Shown here: positions 27,001-30,000 of the stretch, piece after piece | Layout: every line of letters starts with the position of its first letter | Position numbering within the stretch: the stretch's first letter is position 1 | Assembly: GCF_029227855.1 (NCBI RefSeq) | Contig: NZ_CP074357.1 | Length of the DNA: 64,000 nucleotides | From: Escherichia coli | GTDB taxonomy: Bacteria > Pseudomonadota > Gammaproteobacteria > Enterobacterales > Enterobacteriaceae | Direction: 5' to 3' (one strand) | Made by a program: the position numbers

Positions 27001-30000
27001 GGCACCGGCCTTCGCGTTTGAGCAGAGCAAGCGCGCGACCATAGGCGGGCGCTTTATCCGTGTTGATGAATCGTGGGATCTGCCACTTCTTCACGTTGTT
27101 GAGGATTTTACCCAGAAACCGGTATGCAGCTTTGCTGTTACGACGGGAGGAGAGATAAAAATCGACAGTGCGGCCCCGGCTGTCGACGGCCCGGTACAGA
27201 TACGCCCAGCGGCCATTGACCTTCACGTAGGTTTCATCCATGTGCCACGGGCAAAGATCGGAAGGGTTACGCCAGTACCAGCGCAGCCGTTTTTCCATTT
27301 CAGGCGCATAACGCTGAACCCAGCGGTAAATCGTGGAGTGATCGACATTCACTCCGCGTTCAGCCAGCATCTCCTGCAGCTCACGGTAACTGATGCCGTA
27401 TTTGCAGTACCAGCGTACGGCCCACAGAATGATGTCACGCTGAAAATGCCGGCCTTTGAATGGGTTCATGTGCAGCTCCATCAGCAAAAGGGGATGATAA
27501 GTTTATCACCACCGACTATTTGCAACAGTGCCGTCCTGCTTGCTTCGGGTGGCATCGGAATGCCGGCGCTGCAAGCAATGTTGTCCAGGCAGGTGGATGA
27601 GGAACGTCAGGGGCAGCTGCAAGGCTCACTGGCGGCGCTCACCAGCCTGACCTCGATCGTCGGACCCCTCCTCTTCACGGCGATCTATGCGGCTTCTATA
27701 ACAACGTGGAACGGGTGGGCATGGATTGCAGGCGCTGCCCTCTACTTGCTCTGCCTGCCGGCGCTGCGTCGCGGGCTTTGGAGAAATTCTTCAAATTCCC
27801 GTTGCACATAGCCCGGCAATTCCTTTCCCTGCTCTGCCATAAGCGCAGCGAATGCCGGGTAATACTCGTCAACGATCTGATAGAGAAGGGTTTGCTCGGG
27901 TCGGTGGCTCTGGTAACGACCAGTATCCCGATCCCGGCTGGCCGTCCTGGCCGCCACATGAGGCATGTTCCGCGTCCTTGCAATACTGTGTTTACATACA
28001 GTCTATCGCTTAGCGGAAAGTTCTTTTACCCTCAGCCGAAATGCCTGCCGTTGCTAGACATTGCCAGCCAGTGCCCGTCACTCCGCGGTCTTCACTGCGT
28101 GATCGAGTTGATCGACACCCGCCGTGACACGCTCCATGAAGTGCCTGCCTGCGTCTGTTAGCCGAACGCCCCGCGCATGGCGCTCAAATAGCAGGACACC
28201 AAGGTTATCCTCCAGCGCTTTCACACGCGCGCTGACGCTCGACTGGCTGATACCAAGTGCCTTGGCCGCATGCCGAAAATTCAGATGCTCGGCGACGGCG
28301 ATGAACTGAACAAGGGAAATGAGCGGTATCCTGCCAGACAGGATACCGACATTCACGAGGTTTCGATGGTTAGTGCGCCGCATCGGAGCGGGCCTGCTAC
28401 CAGTCGTCGGTTAGACGACTGGCGACTTCTCGGTGGCAGCCCCACGGAGCCGAAGGAGCACCAGCCCCAACGAAACCAGTACCGCCATCGCCGTGGCGTA
28501 ACAGATCACGGGCCACGCTGTGTCACGGTTTAAAAGTGCCACCGCCAATGTCCCGACAATGCTGACTATCAGGCTTTGAACGCAGAAGTAGAACGCGACC
28601 GCTGATCCCGCGATGTCGTCGAACTCTGCCAAAGCGCCGTTCGCGGTAACGGACACCGTGAAGACAATACCGACCGCGACAACCCACATCGGTAGGATGA
28701 AGGTGAGGAATGACGGCGAGCCGTAAAGTTCGCCGATCCCCAACAGGACCGCTCCGCAAACAAGCAACGCCATCCCACGCGCCACGCATCCTGCGATGCC
28801 CCATCTGGCGACAAAGGACTTCGCGAAACGGGTTGTCACGATCATTACAAGCGCGACAGTGGCGAAGGCAAAGCTGAATCCGATCTCGGAATATTCCGCT
28901 TGGCCTATGAGCACACGGGGAGCCGTCGAGAAGAAGACGAAGTAGGTGCCCATACCGGCGCTAAAGCCGACAGTGTAAACCCAAAAAGCCGGACTCGCGA
29001 AGATCGGCAAGACAGATCGGCGCGTCTTGACTTGATCCAGAGGGCGGGTTTCGTGCCACCTGAAACCCGCATTTAGGAGTGCGAGCATCGCCAGTATAGC
29101 CAAAGTAATGAATATCGCCTGCCATCCCAAGAACTCGCCGATCAATGCTCCGGCGATAGGGCCGAGCGCAGGCACGAACGCCAGCACCGAACTGAAAAGG
29201 CCGTAGATGACGACACCCTCAGGACGGTTGGCATAAACGTCGCGAACCGTCGCGAACGTCGCCACCAGCATGGCCGACGCGCCCACTGCTTGAAGTAGAC
29301 GGAAAGCGACAAAGGCCGGTGCAGTTGAAGACCAAGCTGCTCCCAGAGACGCAATGACGAAAGCCGTTGCGCCCGCAAGTAGAATTGGCCGTCGCCCGAT
29401 TCTGTCTGAGAGCGGACCAAAAATCACCTGGCCCACGCCGAGCATCACCATATAGAGGCTCAACGTGAGTTGGATCATAGCGGGCGTCGTGTTCAGGATG
29501 CCGGGCATCGCTGGAACGACAGGGAGATAAATATCCATCGCCAGTGAAGCGAGGATGTCGAAAGGAGCCATCAGCAGCAGTGCTGCCGGCAGCGTATAGG
29601 CCCACGCGGGGCGTGTGGTGGTCATGACGAATCAACCCTCGATTAAGGAATACCGGGCGACGTCTGCTCGTCAGCAATCAGATGAGACTAGCCTTACAGA
29701 GCGCCGCAACAACAATACTGGTTGTTGCGGCTTACTTGTCTGCTGACTTGGAATTTCCCATCTGATTACTCCACGCTTACGAATATGAATTGCTACATTT
29801 TATCCGATTATCTTTTGCTTCGCAATGCGGCATGGGCGCACTCAGCGTTCCAGCCCCCTCTGCCGCCCTAACTGCCACGACACCGACCCGCCCTGCACGA
29901 TGCCCATAACCTCGCGGCCGAGTTGGCGGTCGATGATCGGCCGCCACGGGACAAGGGTGAACTCATGGGATTTCTCGACCACGGCGAACTTGCCGCTCGA

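What the first reader, a model, noticed from the sequence alone, without database searches (positions are those of the whole stretch)
27533..28084. Second, truncated tetA(A) copy fused to a 5' ISCR2 fragment with 4-bp junction microhomology
The 3' 250 bp of tetA(A) (identical to the Tn1721 copy) continues directly into the 5' end of ISCR2 at a shared GGAG (27780..27783), replacing the last ~9 codons of tetA. The ISCR2 fragment then ends at the truncated lysR next to floR. This is the footprint of an ISCR2-floR-lysR-deltaISCR2-tetA(A) island whose tetR and the rest of tetA were later removed by IS26, so the plasmid acquired tet(A) at least twice from different contexts.
Basis: partly seen in the sequence, partly recalled or inferred. 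Interest (0 to 1): 0.3.

Follow-up and report, generated by a model that had tools for sequence, protein, structure and literature searches.

The report
Dead tet(A) stub beside floR
This stretch is a leftover of a very common, already described multi-resistance gene block (sul2-strAB-tetR-tet(A)-floR): an IS26 copy abuts the last 251 bases of tet(A), which are joined to a stub of the mobile element ISCR2, so it is ordinary plasmid scar tissue, not a new feature.

Summary
Bases 27533-27783 are 100% identical to the 3' end of the complete Tn1721-context tetA(A) at 21382-21132. They run straight into the 5' (terIS) end of ISCR2, which is 100% identical to the complete ISCR2 at 32368 inwards. That ISCR2 stub ends at its natural terminus (28084) against a 101-codon lysR remnant next to floR.

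- **Correction:** the junction microhomology is 6 bp (TTGGAG, 27778-27783), not 4.
- **Codon swap:** exactly 9 tetA codons are replaced by 9 ISCR2-antisense codons.
- **How common the junction is:** it is present, base for base, in at least 1,057 of 72,556 plasmid records and in 538 of 5,426 complete E. coli genomes. About 915 of those plasmids carry a full-length tet(A) that AMRFinderPlus annotations in PLSDB score at 100%.
- **IS26 cut:** the cut point at 27533 is shared by 80 plasmids. In the four records inspected the IS26 is the v1 (G184N) variant.
- **What lies beyond that IS26:** the window's arrangement (an IncN repA remnant) occurs in 8 records. At least 44 have the strB-tetR-tetA block inverted there instead.

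Whether IS26 deleted or inverted the missing part is unresolved. Already known; low interest.

The parts
26713..27532 (-). IS26 variant v1. It has three nucleotide differences from the five other IS26 copies in the window and gives Tnp26 G184N. tnp26 CDS is 26765-27469 on the - strand. Its IRL end abuts the tetA remnant.
   Evidence: 14-bp IRs located. Variant positions, G184N and absence of an 8-bp target duplication (left CGTTAGAC, right GTCCTGCT). RefSeq protein WP_001067858.1 in the same position in related plasmids. G184N = IS26-v1 per PMC9019673.
27533..27783 (+). 3' 251 bp of tetA(A), encoding Tet(A) residues 308-390. It lacks a promoter and the first 307 codons, so it is non-functional.
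   Evidence: 100% identical to 21382-21132. NCBIfam tet_MFS_A profile positions 307-394 of 394, E 9e-54. Numbering.
27778..27783 (.). TTGGAG, a 6-bp microhomology shared by tetA(A) and ISCR2 at the join.
   Evidence: Three-way base comparison. P(6 bp or more by chance) about 0.0013.
27784..27811 (+). Nine foreign codons (RNSSNSRCT) plus TAG that replace the native SGAGQRADR tail of Tet(A). They are read from the antisense strand of ISCR2 rcr2.
   Evidence: Translation compared with the native ORF. The same 399-codon fused gene is annotated tet(A) at 100% identity (AMRFinderPlus) in plasmids with the intact module.
27784..28084 (-). ΔISCR2: the terIS end of ISCR2, made of 118 bp upstream of rcr2 plus the first 61 codons of rcr2 (63 if the microhomology is counted). 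It ends at the natural ISCR2 terminus.
   Evidence: 100% identical to 32068-32368 of the complete copy, and both copies diverge from their flanks at the same base. N-terminal 61 aa hit ISCR_clade_Ia. terIS is upstream of rcr according to PMC13393415 and PMC10614715.
27986..28001 (.). LexA-box-like palindrome CTGTGTTTACATACAG within the terIS/Prcr2 region of the stub. It is identical in the complete copy at 32270-32285.
   Evidence: Pattern search. CTGT-N8-ACAG LexA box overlapping the -10 of Prcr2 is described, and bound by LexA, in PMC13393415. No consensus sigma-70 hit with the simple scanner.
28078..28383 (-). ΔlysR: 101-codon ORF holding only the HTH N-terminal third of a LysR-type regulator. 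It is cut by the ISCR2 terminus, which supplies the stop codon.
   Evidence: ORF list. NCBIfam hits align residues ~20-100 to profile positions ~5-85 of ~300. RefSeq WP_001255015.1.
28411..29625 (-). floR, chloramphenicol/florfenicol efflux gene.
   Evidence: NCBIfam FloR 896 bits, above the cut-off of 700.
29842..30726 (-). 'virD2'/DUF3363 ORF: the C-terminal part of a relaxase (RlxS positions 435-651 of 654). The ORF start lies inside the oriIS end of ISCR2.
   Evidence: NCBIfam, Pfam DUF3363. ISCR2 boundary.
30522..32368 (-). Complete ISCR2 (= ISVsa3), about 1,847 bp. rcr2 is 30757-32250. The oriIS end lies near 30522 (...TTCTTCCTATACGT on the element strand) and the terIS end at 32368. It is in direct orientation with the stub, 4,284 bp away.
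   Evidence: Pfam Y2_Tnp and Zn_Tnp_IS91 above gathering thresholds. RefSeq 'IS91-like element ISVsa3 family transposase'. oriIS boundary taken from the common break point (query position 222/223) in plasmids where ISCR2 is not next to floR. Sequence.
32461..33419 (-). 74-codon hypothetical ORF plus a serine resolvase gene flanking the terIS end of the complete ISCR2. The same flank follows the ΔISCR2 stub directly in IncC plasmid pSHE-CTX-M.
   Evidence: Pfam Resolvase and HTH_7. Annotation and spacing in L002 and L001.
33999..34818 (-). IS26 closing the floR segment on the right. Together with IS26 24908-25727 it marks an IS26-mediated inversion of 25728-33998.
   Evidence: Flanking 8-mers GATTCAAG and CTTGAATC are reverse complements. 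The reconstructed un-inverted join is contiguous at 100% in at least 58 plasmids.
21104..22378 (-). The complete tetA(A) in Tn1721 context: pecM/EamA 20188-21072, tetR 22409-23059, IRR-I 23359-23396, ΔtnpA up to IS26 at 24908. This is the 'first' copy used for comparison.
   Evidence: ORFs. NCBIfam Tet(A) 892 bits, above the cut-off of 840. The 38-bp Tn1721 IR is read, recognised from my own knowledge of the IR sequence. Annotation of the near-identical plasmid pL1.

Best explanation
The 552-bp stretch is a non-functional relic of the widespread resistance module sul2-strA-strB-tetR-tet(A)::ΔISCR2-ΔlysR-floR-'virD2'-ISCR2, the kind of block found in ARI-B islands of IncC plasmids and in many IncF, IncHI2 and other plasmids.

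Step 1 (inferred; one old event). An illegitimate, microhomology-guided join at TTGGAG fused tetA(A) codon 390 to position ~302 of ISCR2 counted from its terIS end. The join swapped the last 9 Tet(A) residues and left a 301-bp ISCR2 stub holding terIS, the rcr2 promoter region and 61 codons. This fused tet(A) is the full-length gene annotated as tet(A) at 100% in the intact modules inspected, and every later carrier inherited the identical junction.

Step 2 (shown by comparison). In one sub-lineage, mostly ~200-300-kb plasmids (the four inspected: three IncHI2A, one IncF), an IS26-v1 copy came to lie at tetA nucleotide 922 of the 399-codon gene. That separated the last 251 bp from the rest of tetA, tetR, strAB and sul2. 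This cut is shared by 80 database plasmids.

Step 3 (shown). Sequence on the far side of that IS26-v1 has since been exchanged. In this window it is an IncN repA remnant, and the whole segment 25728-33998 was then inverted by another IS26.

The working tet(A) of this plasmid is the separate Tn1721-context copy at 21.1-22.4 kb. The stub does nothing for tetracycline resistance and is carried along with floR.
For: - Identities of all parts.
- Identical junction in at least 1,057 plasmid records and in 538 of 5,426 complete E. coli genomes.
- About 915 plasmids have full-length tet(A) plus ΔISCR2. The intact module is displayed in NZ_CP138809 and in IncC pSHE-CTX-M, with tet(A) called at 100% identity across the junction.
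- A complete ISCR2 abutting lysR also exists (H106, Vibrio furnissii), and 'ISCR2-lysR-floR-virD2-ISCR2' is reported in PMC8694195. The stub is therefore a truncated once-complete copy.
- 6-bp microhomology, chance about 0.001.
- The IS26|ΔtetA junction is in 80 records. In the four records inspected it sits beside the v1 transposase WP_001067858.1, on IncHI2 and IncF backbones. There is no target duplication around this IS26.
- Far-side contexts: ΔstrA in at least 44 records, IncN ΔrepA in 8.
- Inversion shown.
Against: - No plasmid was found that preserves the pre-fusion arrangement (tetA with its native end lying beyond a complete ISCR2), so the microhomology-deletion step is inferred from the junction alone.
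- The order of events around floR is ambiguous. pSHE-CTX-M has tet(A)::ΔISCR2 followed directly by the flank of the complete ISCR2. That could be a later loss of the 4,284-bp floR unit, or the older state into which floR was inserted.
- The mechanism of the IS26 step (deletion versus inversion) is not settled.
- The tetA remnant has no SNP distinguishing it from the Tn1721 copy.
- The link to ARI-B rests on one IncC example and on recalled literature. The open-access papers read here describe ARI-B only in general terms.
Confidence: 0.9

Rival explanations
1. IS26 did not delete the rest of tetA. An intramolecular IS26-v1 transposition in inverse orientation, from a copy sitting in strA into tetA, flipped the strA3'-strB-tetR-tetA5' block. 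The inverted tetA5' then recombined with a resident Tn1721 tetA. On this reading the 'missing' part was displaced, not lost, and the window's form arose later by exchange at IS26-v1.
For: In pB1S11-p2 and at least 43 other plasmids the order is pecM-tetA-tetR-strB-ΔstrA(3' 273 bp)-IS26-v1-ΔtetA(251 bp)-ΔISCR2. The strB-tetR-tetA block is inverted relative to the stub. The IRR of IS26-v1 faces ΔstrA and the IRL faces ΔtetA, which is exactly the geometry an inversion predicts. This is the commonest context of the junction (at least 44 of 80). IS26-mediated inversion is demonstrably active in this same region.
Against: The predicted reciprocal junction (IS26 end + AGCAGGAC + tetA 5' part) was not found with either IS26 end in 72,556 plasmids. 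The same structure can be reached another way: homologous inversion between two inverted tetAR copies, followed by an IS26 adjacent deletion. The tetA next to pecM is full length, so an extra recombination step must be assumed.
Confidence: 0.35
2. The tetA::ISCR2 join was produced by ISCR2 itself, through aberrant rolling-circle initiation or termination inside rcr2, rather than by host-mediated microhomology joining.
For: ISCR/IS91 elements are thought to move by rolling-circle replication and to mis-terminate (PMC13393415; PMC11228144). The stub keeps an intact terIS end.
Against: The break lies inside the transposase gene (codon 61-63), not at oriIS or terIS. The sequence at the break shows no convincing similarity to the oriIS end (best 9 of 12, in the wrong orientation). 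A 6-bp overlap is the classic signature of illegitimate recombination.
Confidence: 0.07
3. The fragment was generated within this plasmid from its own Tn1721 tetA copy (local duplication followed by ISCR2 truncation). tet(A) would then have been acquired only once.
For: The 251 bp are 100% identical to the resident Tn1721 copy.
Against: The identical fusion junction occurs in at least 1,057 plasmids, including IncC, IncF and IncQ1-containing ones that have full-length fused tet(A). The whole tetR-tetA segment of those modules is also 100% identical to Tn1721, so identity is uninformative. The native 3' end with pecM and the fused 3' end cannot be interconverted.
Confidence: 0.02
4. The junction is an assembly chimera.
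For: The region is dense in repeats: six IS26 copies, two ISCR2 segments and two tetA segments.
Against: The same IS26|ΔtetA|ΔISCR2|ΔlysR string (752 bp, 100%) is present in dozens of independently assembled complete plasmids. The tetA|ISCR2 join is present in over a thousand.
Confidence: 0.01

Closest known systems
sul2-strAB-tetR-tet(A)-ΔISCR2-lysR-floR-virD2-ISCR2 resistance module (ARI-B-type islands of IncC plasmids; also on IncF, IncHI2 and IncQ1-hybrid plasmids)
   Same: The tetA|ISCR2 junction, the ΔISCR2 length (301 bp to terIS), ΔlysR, floR, the virD2-like ORF, the complete ISCR2 and its resolvase-side flank are all identical.
   Different: Here everything upstream of tetA codon 308 (tetA 5' part, tetR, strAB, sul2) is missing from this side of IS26-v1. 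The island sits in an IncHI2A/IncN-remnant multiresistance region, not at the IncC ARI-B site.
ISCR2(ΔISCR2)-virD2-floR-lysR-ISCR2(ΔISCR2) 'transposon-like' floR unit (SXT/pAB5S9 type; PMC6885840, PMC4444841)
   Same: floR is bracketed by a complete ISCR2 and a truncated ISCR2 in direct orientation, and lysR is cut by the ISCR2 terIS end.
   Different: The truncation point of the stub here is the tetA-specific one (TTGGAG). I did not compare it with the SXT or pAB5S9 stub boundary.
IncHI2 multiresistance regions with IS26-v1, strAB-tetAR-ΔTn1721-ISVsa3-floR (PMC9019673; e.g. NZ_OL598600-602)
   Same: These very plasmids carry the identical IS26|ΔtetA|ΔISCR2|ΔlysR string, with IS26-v1 (G184N) as the flanking IS.
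   Different: They have ΔstrA-strB-tetR-tetA on the other side of IS26-v1. The window instead has an IncN repA remnant there (8 records), plus an additional IS26 inversion.
Tn1721 tet region (pecM-tetA(A)-tetR between IRR-II and IRR-I)
   Same: The remnant is 100% identical in sequence to the Tn1721 tetA 3' part up to codon 390.
   Different: It lacks the last 9 native codons and the pecM side. In the intact module the tetR-side boundary coincides with the outer end of IRR-I rather than lying inside Tn1721.

Membership tests
tet(A) class A tetracycline efflux gene (fragment) | Sequence identity to tetA(A), or a match to the Tet(A)-specific profile | tested here: met
   251 bp are 100% identical to the complete copy. 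The best NCBIfam hit is tet_MFS_A, profile positions 307-394 of 394, at 183 bits. This is below the 840-bit whole-protein cut-off only because it is a fragment. The complete copy scores 892 bits.
tet(A) class A tetracycline efflux gene (fragment) | Complete ORF with promoter/tetR operator, i.e. capable of conferring resistance | tested here: not met
   Only residues 308-390 remain, and IS26 abuts at 27533. It is a pseudogene remnant.
ISCR2 (ISVsa3), IS91-family/ISCR rolling-circle element | HUH/Y2 transposase with an N-terminal zinc-binding domain | tested here: met
   The complete copy has Pfam Y2_Tnp (124.7 bits) and Zn_Tnp_IS91 (70.6 bits), both above gathering thresholds. RefSeq names it ISVsa3 family. 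The NCBIfam ISCR_clade_Ia (671 bits, cut-off 925) and transpos_IS91 (107 bits, cut-off 125) models were both below their cut-offs. Equating ISVsa3 with ISCR2 rests on my own knowledge and on usage in PMC9019673.
ISCR2 (ISVsa3), IS91-family/ISCR rolling-circle element | Distinct ends: terIS upstream of rcr (with Prcr and LexA box) and oriIS downstream | tested here: met
   The LexA box CTGT-N8-ACAG is present in both copies, as described in PMC13393415. The terIS terminus is defined by two independent flanks. The oriIS terminus is near 30522, from the common break point. The stub has terIS only, so it is not a functional element.
tet(A)::ΔISCR2-lysR-floR module (ARI-B-type) | The exact tetA|ISCR2 junction sequence | tested here: met
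   The 100-bp junction probe gives full-length 100% matches (H66-H72 among those listed). At least 1,057 plasmid records cover 80% or more of it.
tet(A)::ΔISCR2-lysR-floR module (ARI-B-type) | ΔISCR2 followed by ΔlysR-floR-virD2-ISCR2 in the same order and orientation | tested here: met
tet(A)::ΔISCR2-lysR-floR module (ARI-B-type) | Location at the ARI-B insertion site of an IncC backbone | tested here: not met
   The window matches IncHI2A plasmids. It is therefore a copy of the module, not an ARI-B island as such.
IS26-mediated rearrangement | An IS26 terminal inverted repeat exactly at the break, with no flanking 8-bp direct duplication | tested here: met
IS26-mediated rearrangement | A reciprocal junction that identifies the event as inversion or TU excision | tested here: not met
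   Neither predicted reciprocal junction was found in the plasmid collection. The type of IS26 event remains open.

The most novel reading that the evidence does not exclude
The ISCR2 stub keeps terIS, the LexA-controlled rcr2 promoter and 63 codons, and it points into the 3' end of tet(A). In the ~900 plasmids with the intact fusion it could therefore act as an SOS-inducible antisense promoter, or produce a 74-aa Rcr2 N-terminal peptide, that modulates tet(A) or ISCR2 activity. In this window it would be only a vestige of that arrangement.
Probability: 0.03. Interest if true: 0.3.

Novelty: already known. Interest (0 to 1): 0.07.

Why it matters
It matters only as bookkeeping.

- **History:** the stub shows that the floR segment of this IncHI2-type plasmid descends from the classic sul2-strAB-tet(A)-floR module, and that tet(A)-bearing DNA entered the lineage from two contexts.
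- **Annotation:** resistance-gene callers and annotators should treat 27533-27811 as a pseudogene, not a second tet(A).
- **Lineage markers:** the exact junctions (TTGGAG, and IS26-v1 at tetA nucleotide 922) are handy markers for tracing these plasmids.

No new biology is implied.

Tried and rejected
1. **Reciprocal IS26 junctions.** I looked for the junctions predicted if the cut at 27533 arose by IS26 inversion (IRR + AGCAGGAC + tetA 5' part) or by excision of a translocatable unit (IRL version). Neither exists in 72,556 plasmids. The single '100%' hit is two pieces about 250 bp apart, not a junction.
2. **ISCR2-made junction.** I tested whether the internal ISCR2 break resembles the oriIS end, as a pseudo-origin would. 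The best match was 9 of 12 in the wrong orientation, so this was rejected.
3. **SNP discrimination.** I looked for SNPs that would tell a 'module-type' tetA from the Tn1721 tetA. There are none over 2,227 bp, so sequence cannot discriminate the two sources.
4. **Promoter and terminator scan.** The simple scan of 27400-28450 gave no hits on either strand. The published Prcr2 is weak and is not picked up by consensus matching.
5. **Literature on the junction.** I searched for an explicit description of the tetA|ISCR2 junction or of a 'truncated tetA' beside floR. I found only gene-order descriptions. Toleman et al. 2006 (PMC1489542) is not held. The Harmer and Hall reviews I recalled did not surface in the searches and were not requested by id.
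6. **Data access.** /data did not expose L002 and L003 to Python, so that comparison was done with DNA alignment instead.
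Full report
**What is in the sequence**

Reading 26500-29500 and a self-BLAST of the region against the window give this string:

- IS26, 26713-27532.
- tetA(A) 3' end, 27533-27783. These 251 bp are 100% identical to 21382-21132 of the complete tetA(A) ORF at 21104-22378 on the minus strand.
- ISCR2 5' fragment running to 28084. BLAST aligns 27775-28084 to 32059-32368 with one mismatch.
- A short LysR-type ORF, 28078-28383(-).
- floR, 28411-29625(-).
- A DUF3363/'virD2' relaxase fragment, 29842-30726(-).
- The 497-aa ISCR2 transposase gene, 30757-32250(-).

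Gene identities were confirmed with NCBIfam and Pfam:

| Feature | Result |
|---|---|
| Complete Tet(A) | 892 bits |
| Tet(A) remnant | profile positions 307-394 of 394 |
| FloR | 896 bits |
| LysR remnant | HTH third only |
| Rcr2 | Y2_Tnp + Zn_Tnp_IS91 |

**The junction in detail**

A three-way base comparison places the one BLAST 'mismatch' (27777) on the tetA side. The ISCR2-derived sequence is therefore perfect from 27778.

- The bases common to both parents are TTGGAG (27778-27783).
- Under a random-join model, 6 bp or more of overlap is expected about 0.13% of the time. A microhomology-guided illegitimate join is therefore the natural reading.
- The tetA frame reads on through antisense ISCR2 for nine codons (RNSSNSRCT) to TAG at 27809-27811. 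These replace the native nine (SGAGQRADR).
- On the other strand the stub keeps the rcr2 start (27966), 61 intact codons (63 counting the overlap), and 118 bp upstream up to the element's end.
- That upstream region contains the palindrome CTGTGTTTACATACAG (27986-28001), identical in the complete copy. It fits the LexA box reported to overlap the rcr2 promoter in the terIS region (PMC13393415).
- The stub and the complete copy both stop matching their flanks at the same base (28084 and 32368). That base is therefore the true terIS terminus.
- The lysR ORF's stop codon lies in the last 7 bp of ISCR2, so lysR is truncated by the element.
- The other (oriIS) end of the complete copy is near 30522. 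This is the common break point in plasmids where ISCR2 is not next to floR (sequence ...TTCTTCCTATACGT). The element is therefore about 1,847 bp long.

**Is it real and more than chance?**

The E-values are 6e-132 and 4e-163. The full 752-bp string IS26|ΔtetA|ΔISCR2|ΔlysR is found at 100% identity in dozens of independently assembled complete plasmids. An assembly artefact is therefore not credible.

**Where it comes from**

The window matches ~260-kb IncHI2A plasmids such as E. coli pL1, NZ_CP071712.

- A 100-bp probe centred on the tetA|ISCR2 join is matched over at least 80% of its length in at least 1,057 of 72,556 plasmid records; all sampled full-length matches were 100% identical.
- A 401-bp probe finds the join in 538 of 5,426 complete E. 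coli genomes.
- About 915 plasmids carry full-length tet(A) joined to the stub.
- K. pneumoniae plasmid NZ_CP138809 shows the whole module: repC(IncQ)-sul2-strA-strB-tetR-tet(A)-ΔISCR2-ΔlysR-floR-virD2. IncC plasmid pSHE-CTX-M has sul2-strAB-tetR-tet(A)-ΔISCR2.
- In both, AMRFinderPlus calls the fused 399-codon gene tet(A) at 100% identity. The ISCR2-derived tail therefore matches an AMRFinderPlus reference Tet(A) sequence exactly.
- A complete ISCR2 abutting lysR also exists (H106; 'ISCR2-lysR-floR-virD2-ISCR2' in PMC8694195). The stub is thus a truncated once-complete copy.

The literature already describes these pieces:

| Structure described | Source |
|---|---|
| ISCR2-virD2-floR-lysR-(Δ)ISCR2 | PMC6885840, PMC4947595, PMC4444841 |
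| IS26-ΔISCR2-tetA(A)-tetR(A) | PMC10614715 |
| IS26-v1-strA/B-tetA/R-ΔTn1721-ISVsa3-floR in IncHI2 | PMC9019673 |

The plasmids of PMC9019673 (NZ_OL598600-602) are among my hits.

**The IS26 side**

- The IS26 at 26713-27532 differs from the other five copies in the window at three positions and encodes Tnp26 G184N. This is the IS26-v1 variant said to have raised activity (PMC9019673 citing Pong et al. 2019).
- It has no 8-bp target duplication, so it is not a simple insertion.
- The exact IS26|tetA join is present in 80 plasmid records.
- In all four records inspected (three IncHI2A and one IncF Shigella plasmid) the IS26 is the v1 type.
- What lies beyond that IS26 varies. At least 44 records have ΔstrA(3')-strB-tetR-tetA-pecM in inverted orientation. 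Eight have the window's IncN repA remnant. One has ISApl1.

The commonest form is what an IS26 inversion inside the module would give, if it were followed by recombination with a Tn1721 tetA. However, neither predicted reciprocal junction exists in the collection. An alternative route reaches the same structure: homologous inversion between two inverted tetAR copies, then an IS26 adjacent deletion. I therefore leave 'deleted' versus 'displaced' open, at roughly 35% for the IS26 intramolecular-inversion route and the rest for routes ending in an IS26 adjacent deletion (with or without a prior homologous inversion).

**Two acquisitions?**

The 2,227-bp tetR-tetA segment of the intact module is 100% identical to the window's Tn1721 copy. 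The fragment's sequence therefore cannot tell the sources apart. Context can:

- The resident copy has its native tail, pecM, and IRR-I with ΔtnpA of Tn1721.
- The fragment has the ISCR2-fused tail that pre-exists in IncC, IncF and IncQ1-containing plasmids.
- Neither 3' end can be derived from the other, so two tetA-bearing DNAs entered the lineage.

Both routes to the ΔstrA-type structure need two tetA copies to have coexisted in an ancestor.

**Later history in this window**

- IS26 24908-25727 (+) and IS26 33999-34818 (-) carry reverse-complementary 8-mers on their right sides, GATTCAAG and CTTGAATC.
- Joining rc(25728-26027) to 34827-35126 recreates a sequence found uninterrupted at 100% identity in at least 58 plasmids, e.g. 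pEC_G4W1.
- The whole block 25728-33998, including the finding, has therefore been inverted by intramolecular IS26 transposition.

**Function**

The fragment has no start, no promoter and only 83 native codons, so it is inert for tetracycline resistance. The stub is a 301-307-bp direct repeat of the complete ISCR2, 4,284 bp away.

- In pSHE-CTX-M the stub is followed directly by the flank of the complete ISCR2; the spacing matches to the base.
- This is the expected product of recombination between the two repeats, or alternatively the precursor into which the floR unit was inserted.
- The stub may therefore still serve as a recombination handle for gain or loss of floR. This is inference.

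The only less ordinary reading I cannot exclude concerns the stub's LexA-controlled promoter. It might drive antisense transcription into tet(A) in plasmids with the intact fusion. The published promoter is very weak, and nothing here supports the idea. I give it about 3%.

**Verdict**

The structure is already known and extremely common. Interest is low.

Noticed in passing
window 24908-25727, 25728-33998, 33999-34818: An IS26-mediated inversion. Two inversely oriented IS26 copies carry reverse-complementary 8-bp flanks (GATTCAAG and CTTGAATC). The reconstructed un-inverted join (IncN repA/iteron region running into the IS4321 side) is contiguous at 100% in at least 58 plasmids, e.g. pEC_G4W1 NZ_ON960343.
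   Followed up: yes
window 26713-27532: This IS26 is the v1 variant: three nucleotide changes and Tnp26 G184N. The five other complete IS26 copies in the window are standard. In the four records inspected that share the ΔtetA cut, the same v1 transposase (WP_001067858.1) sits next to it.
   Followed up: partly
window 38084-38384: A 301-bp IS26 fragment (the IRL end only) that breaks off inside the element. What truncated it was not examined.
   Followed up: no
L003 (NZ_CP138809) ~5824; window 23358/23359: In the intact module the tetR-side boundary of the Tn1721-identical segment falls exactly at the outer edge of the internal 38-bp IR (IRR-I) of Tn1721. It is preceded by ~190 bp that I recognise from memory as RSF1010 oriV-like, and by the Tn5393 IR. 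A boundary at an IR edge suggests a transposition-related origin for that join rather than a random deletion.
   Followed up: no
L002 (IncC pSHE-CTX-M NZ_CP022359) 9050-9444: tet(A)::ΔISCR2 is followed directly by the hypothetical/resolvase flank of the complete ISCR2, so the 4,284-bp lysR-floR-virD2-ISCR2 unit is absent. This is either loss by recombination between the stub and the complete copy, or the state before floR arrived.
   Followed up: partly
L006 (pB1S11-p2 NZ_CP117719) 3640-9300 and at least 43 other plasmids: The arrangement is pecM-tetA-tetR-strB-ΔstrA-IS26-v1-ΔtetA(251 bp). The Tn1721-type tetA is joined on its tetR side to the strB end of the sul2-strAB module, and it is inverted relative to the stub. 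This is a hybrid that must have needed recombination between two tetAR copies.
   Followed up: partly
window 29842-30726 and 30522-30726: The annotated 'virD2'/DUF3363 ORF is only the C-terminal third of a relaxase (RlxS positions 435-651 of 654). It starts inside the oriIS end of ISCR2, so it is a truncated gene with a fortuitous start.
   Followed up: partly
window 17903-19723 and 23391-24980: Two ORFs share the same Tn3-family transposase C-terminus. This is consistent with the known ΔtnpA' duplication bracketing the tet region of Tn1721. The second is cut by IS26 at 24908.
   Followed up: no
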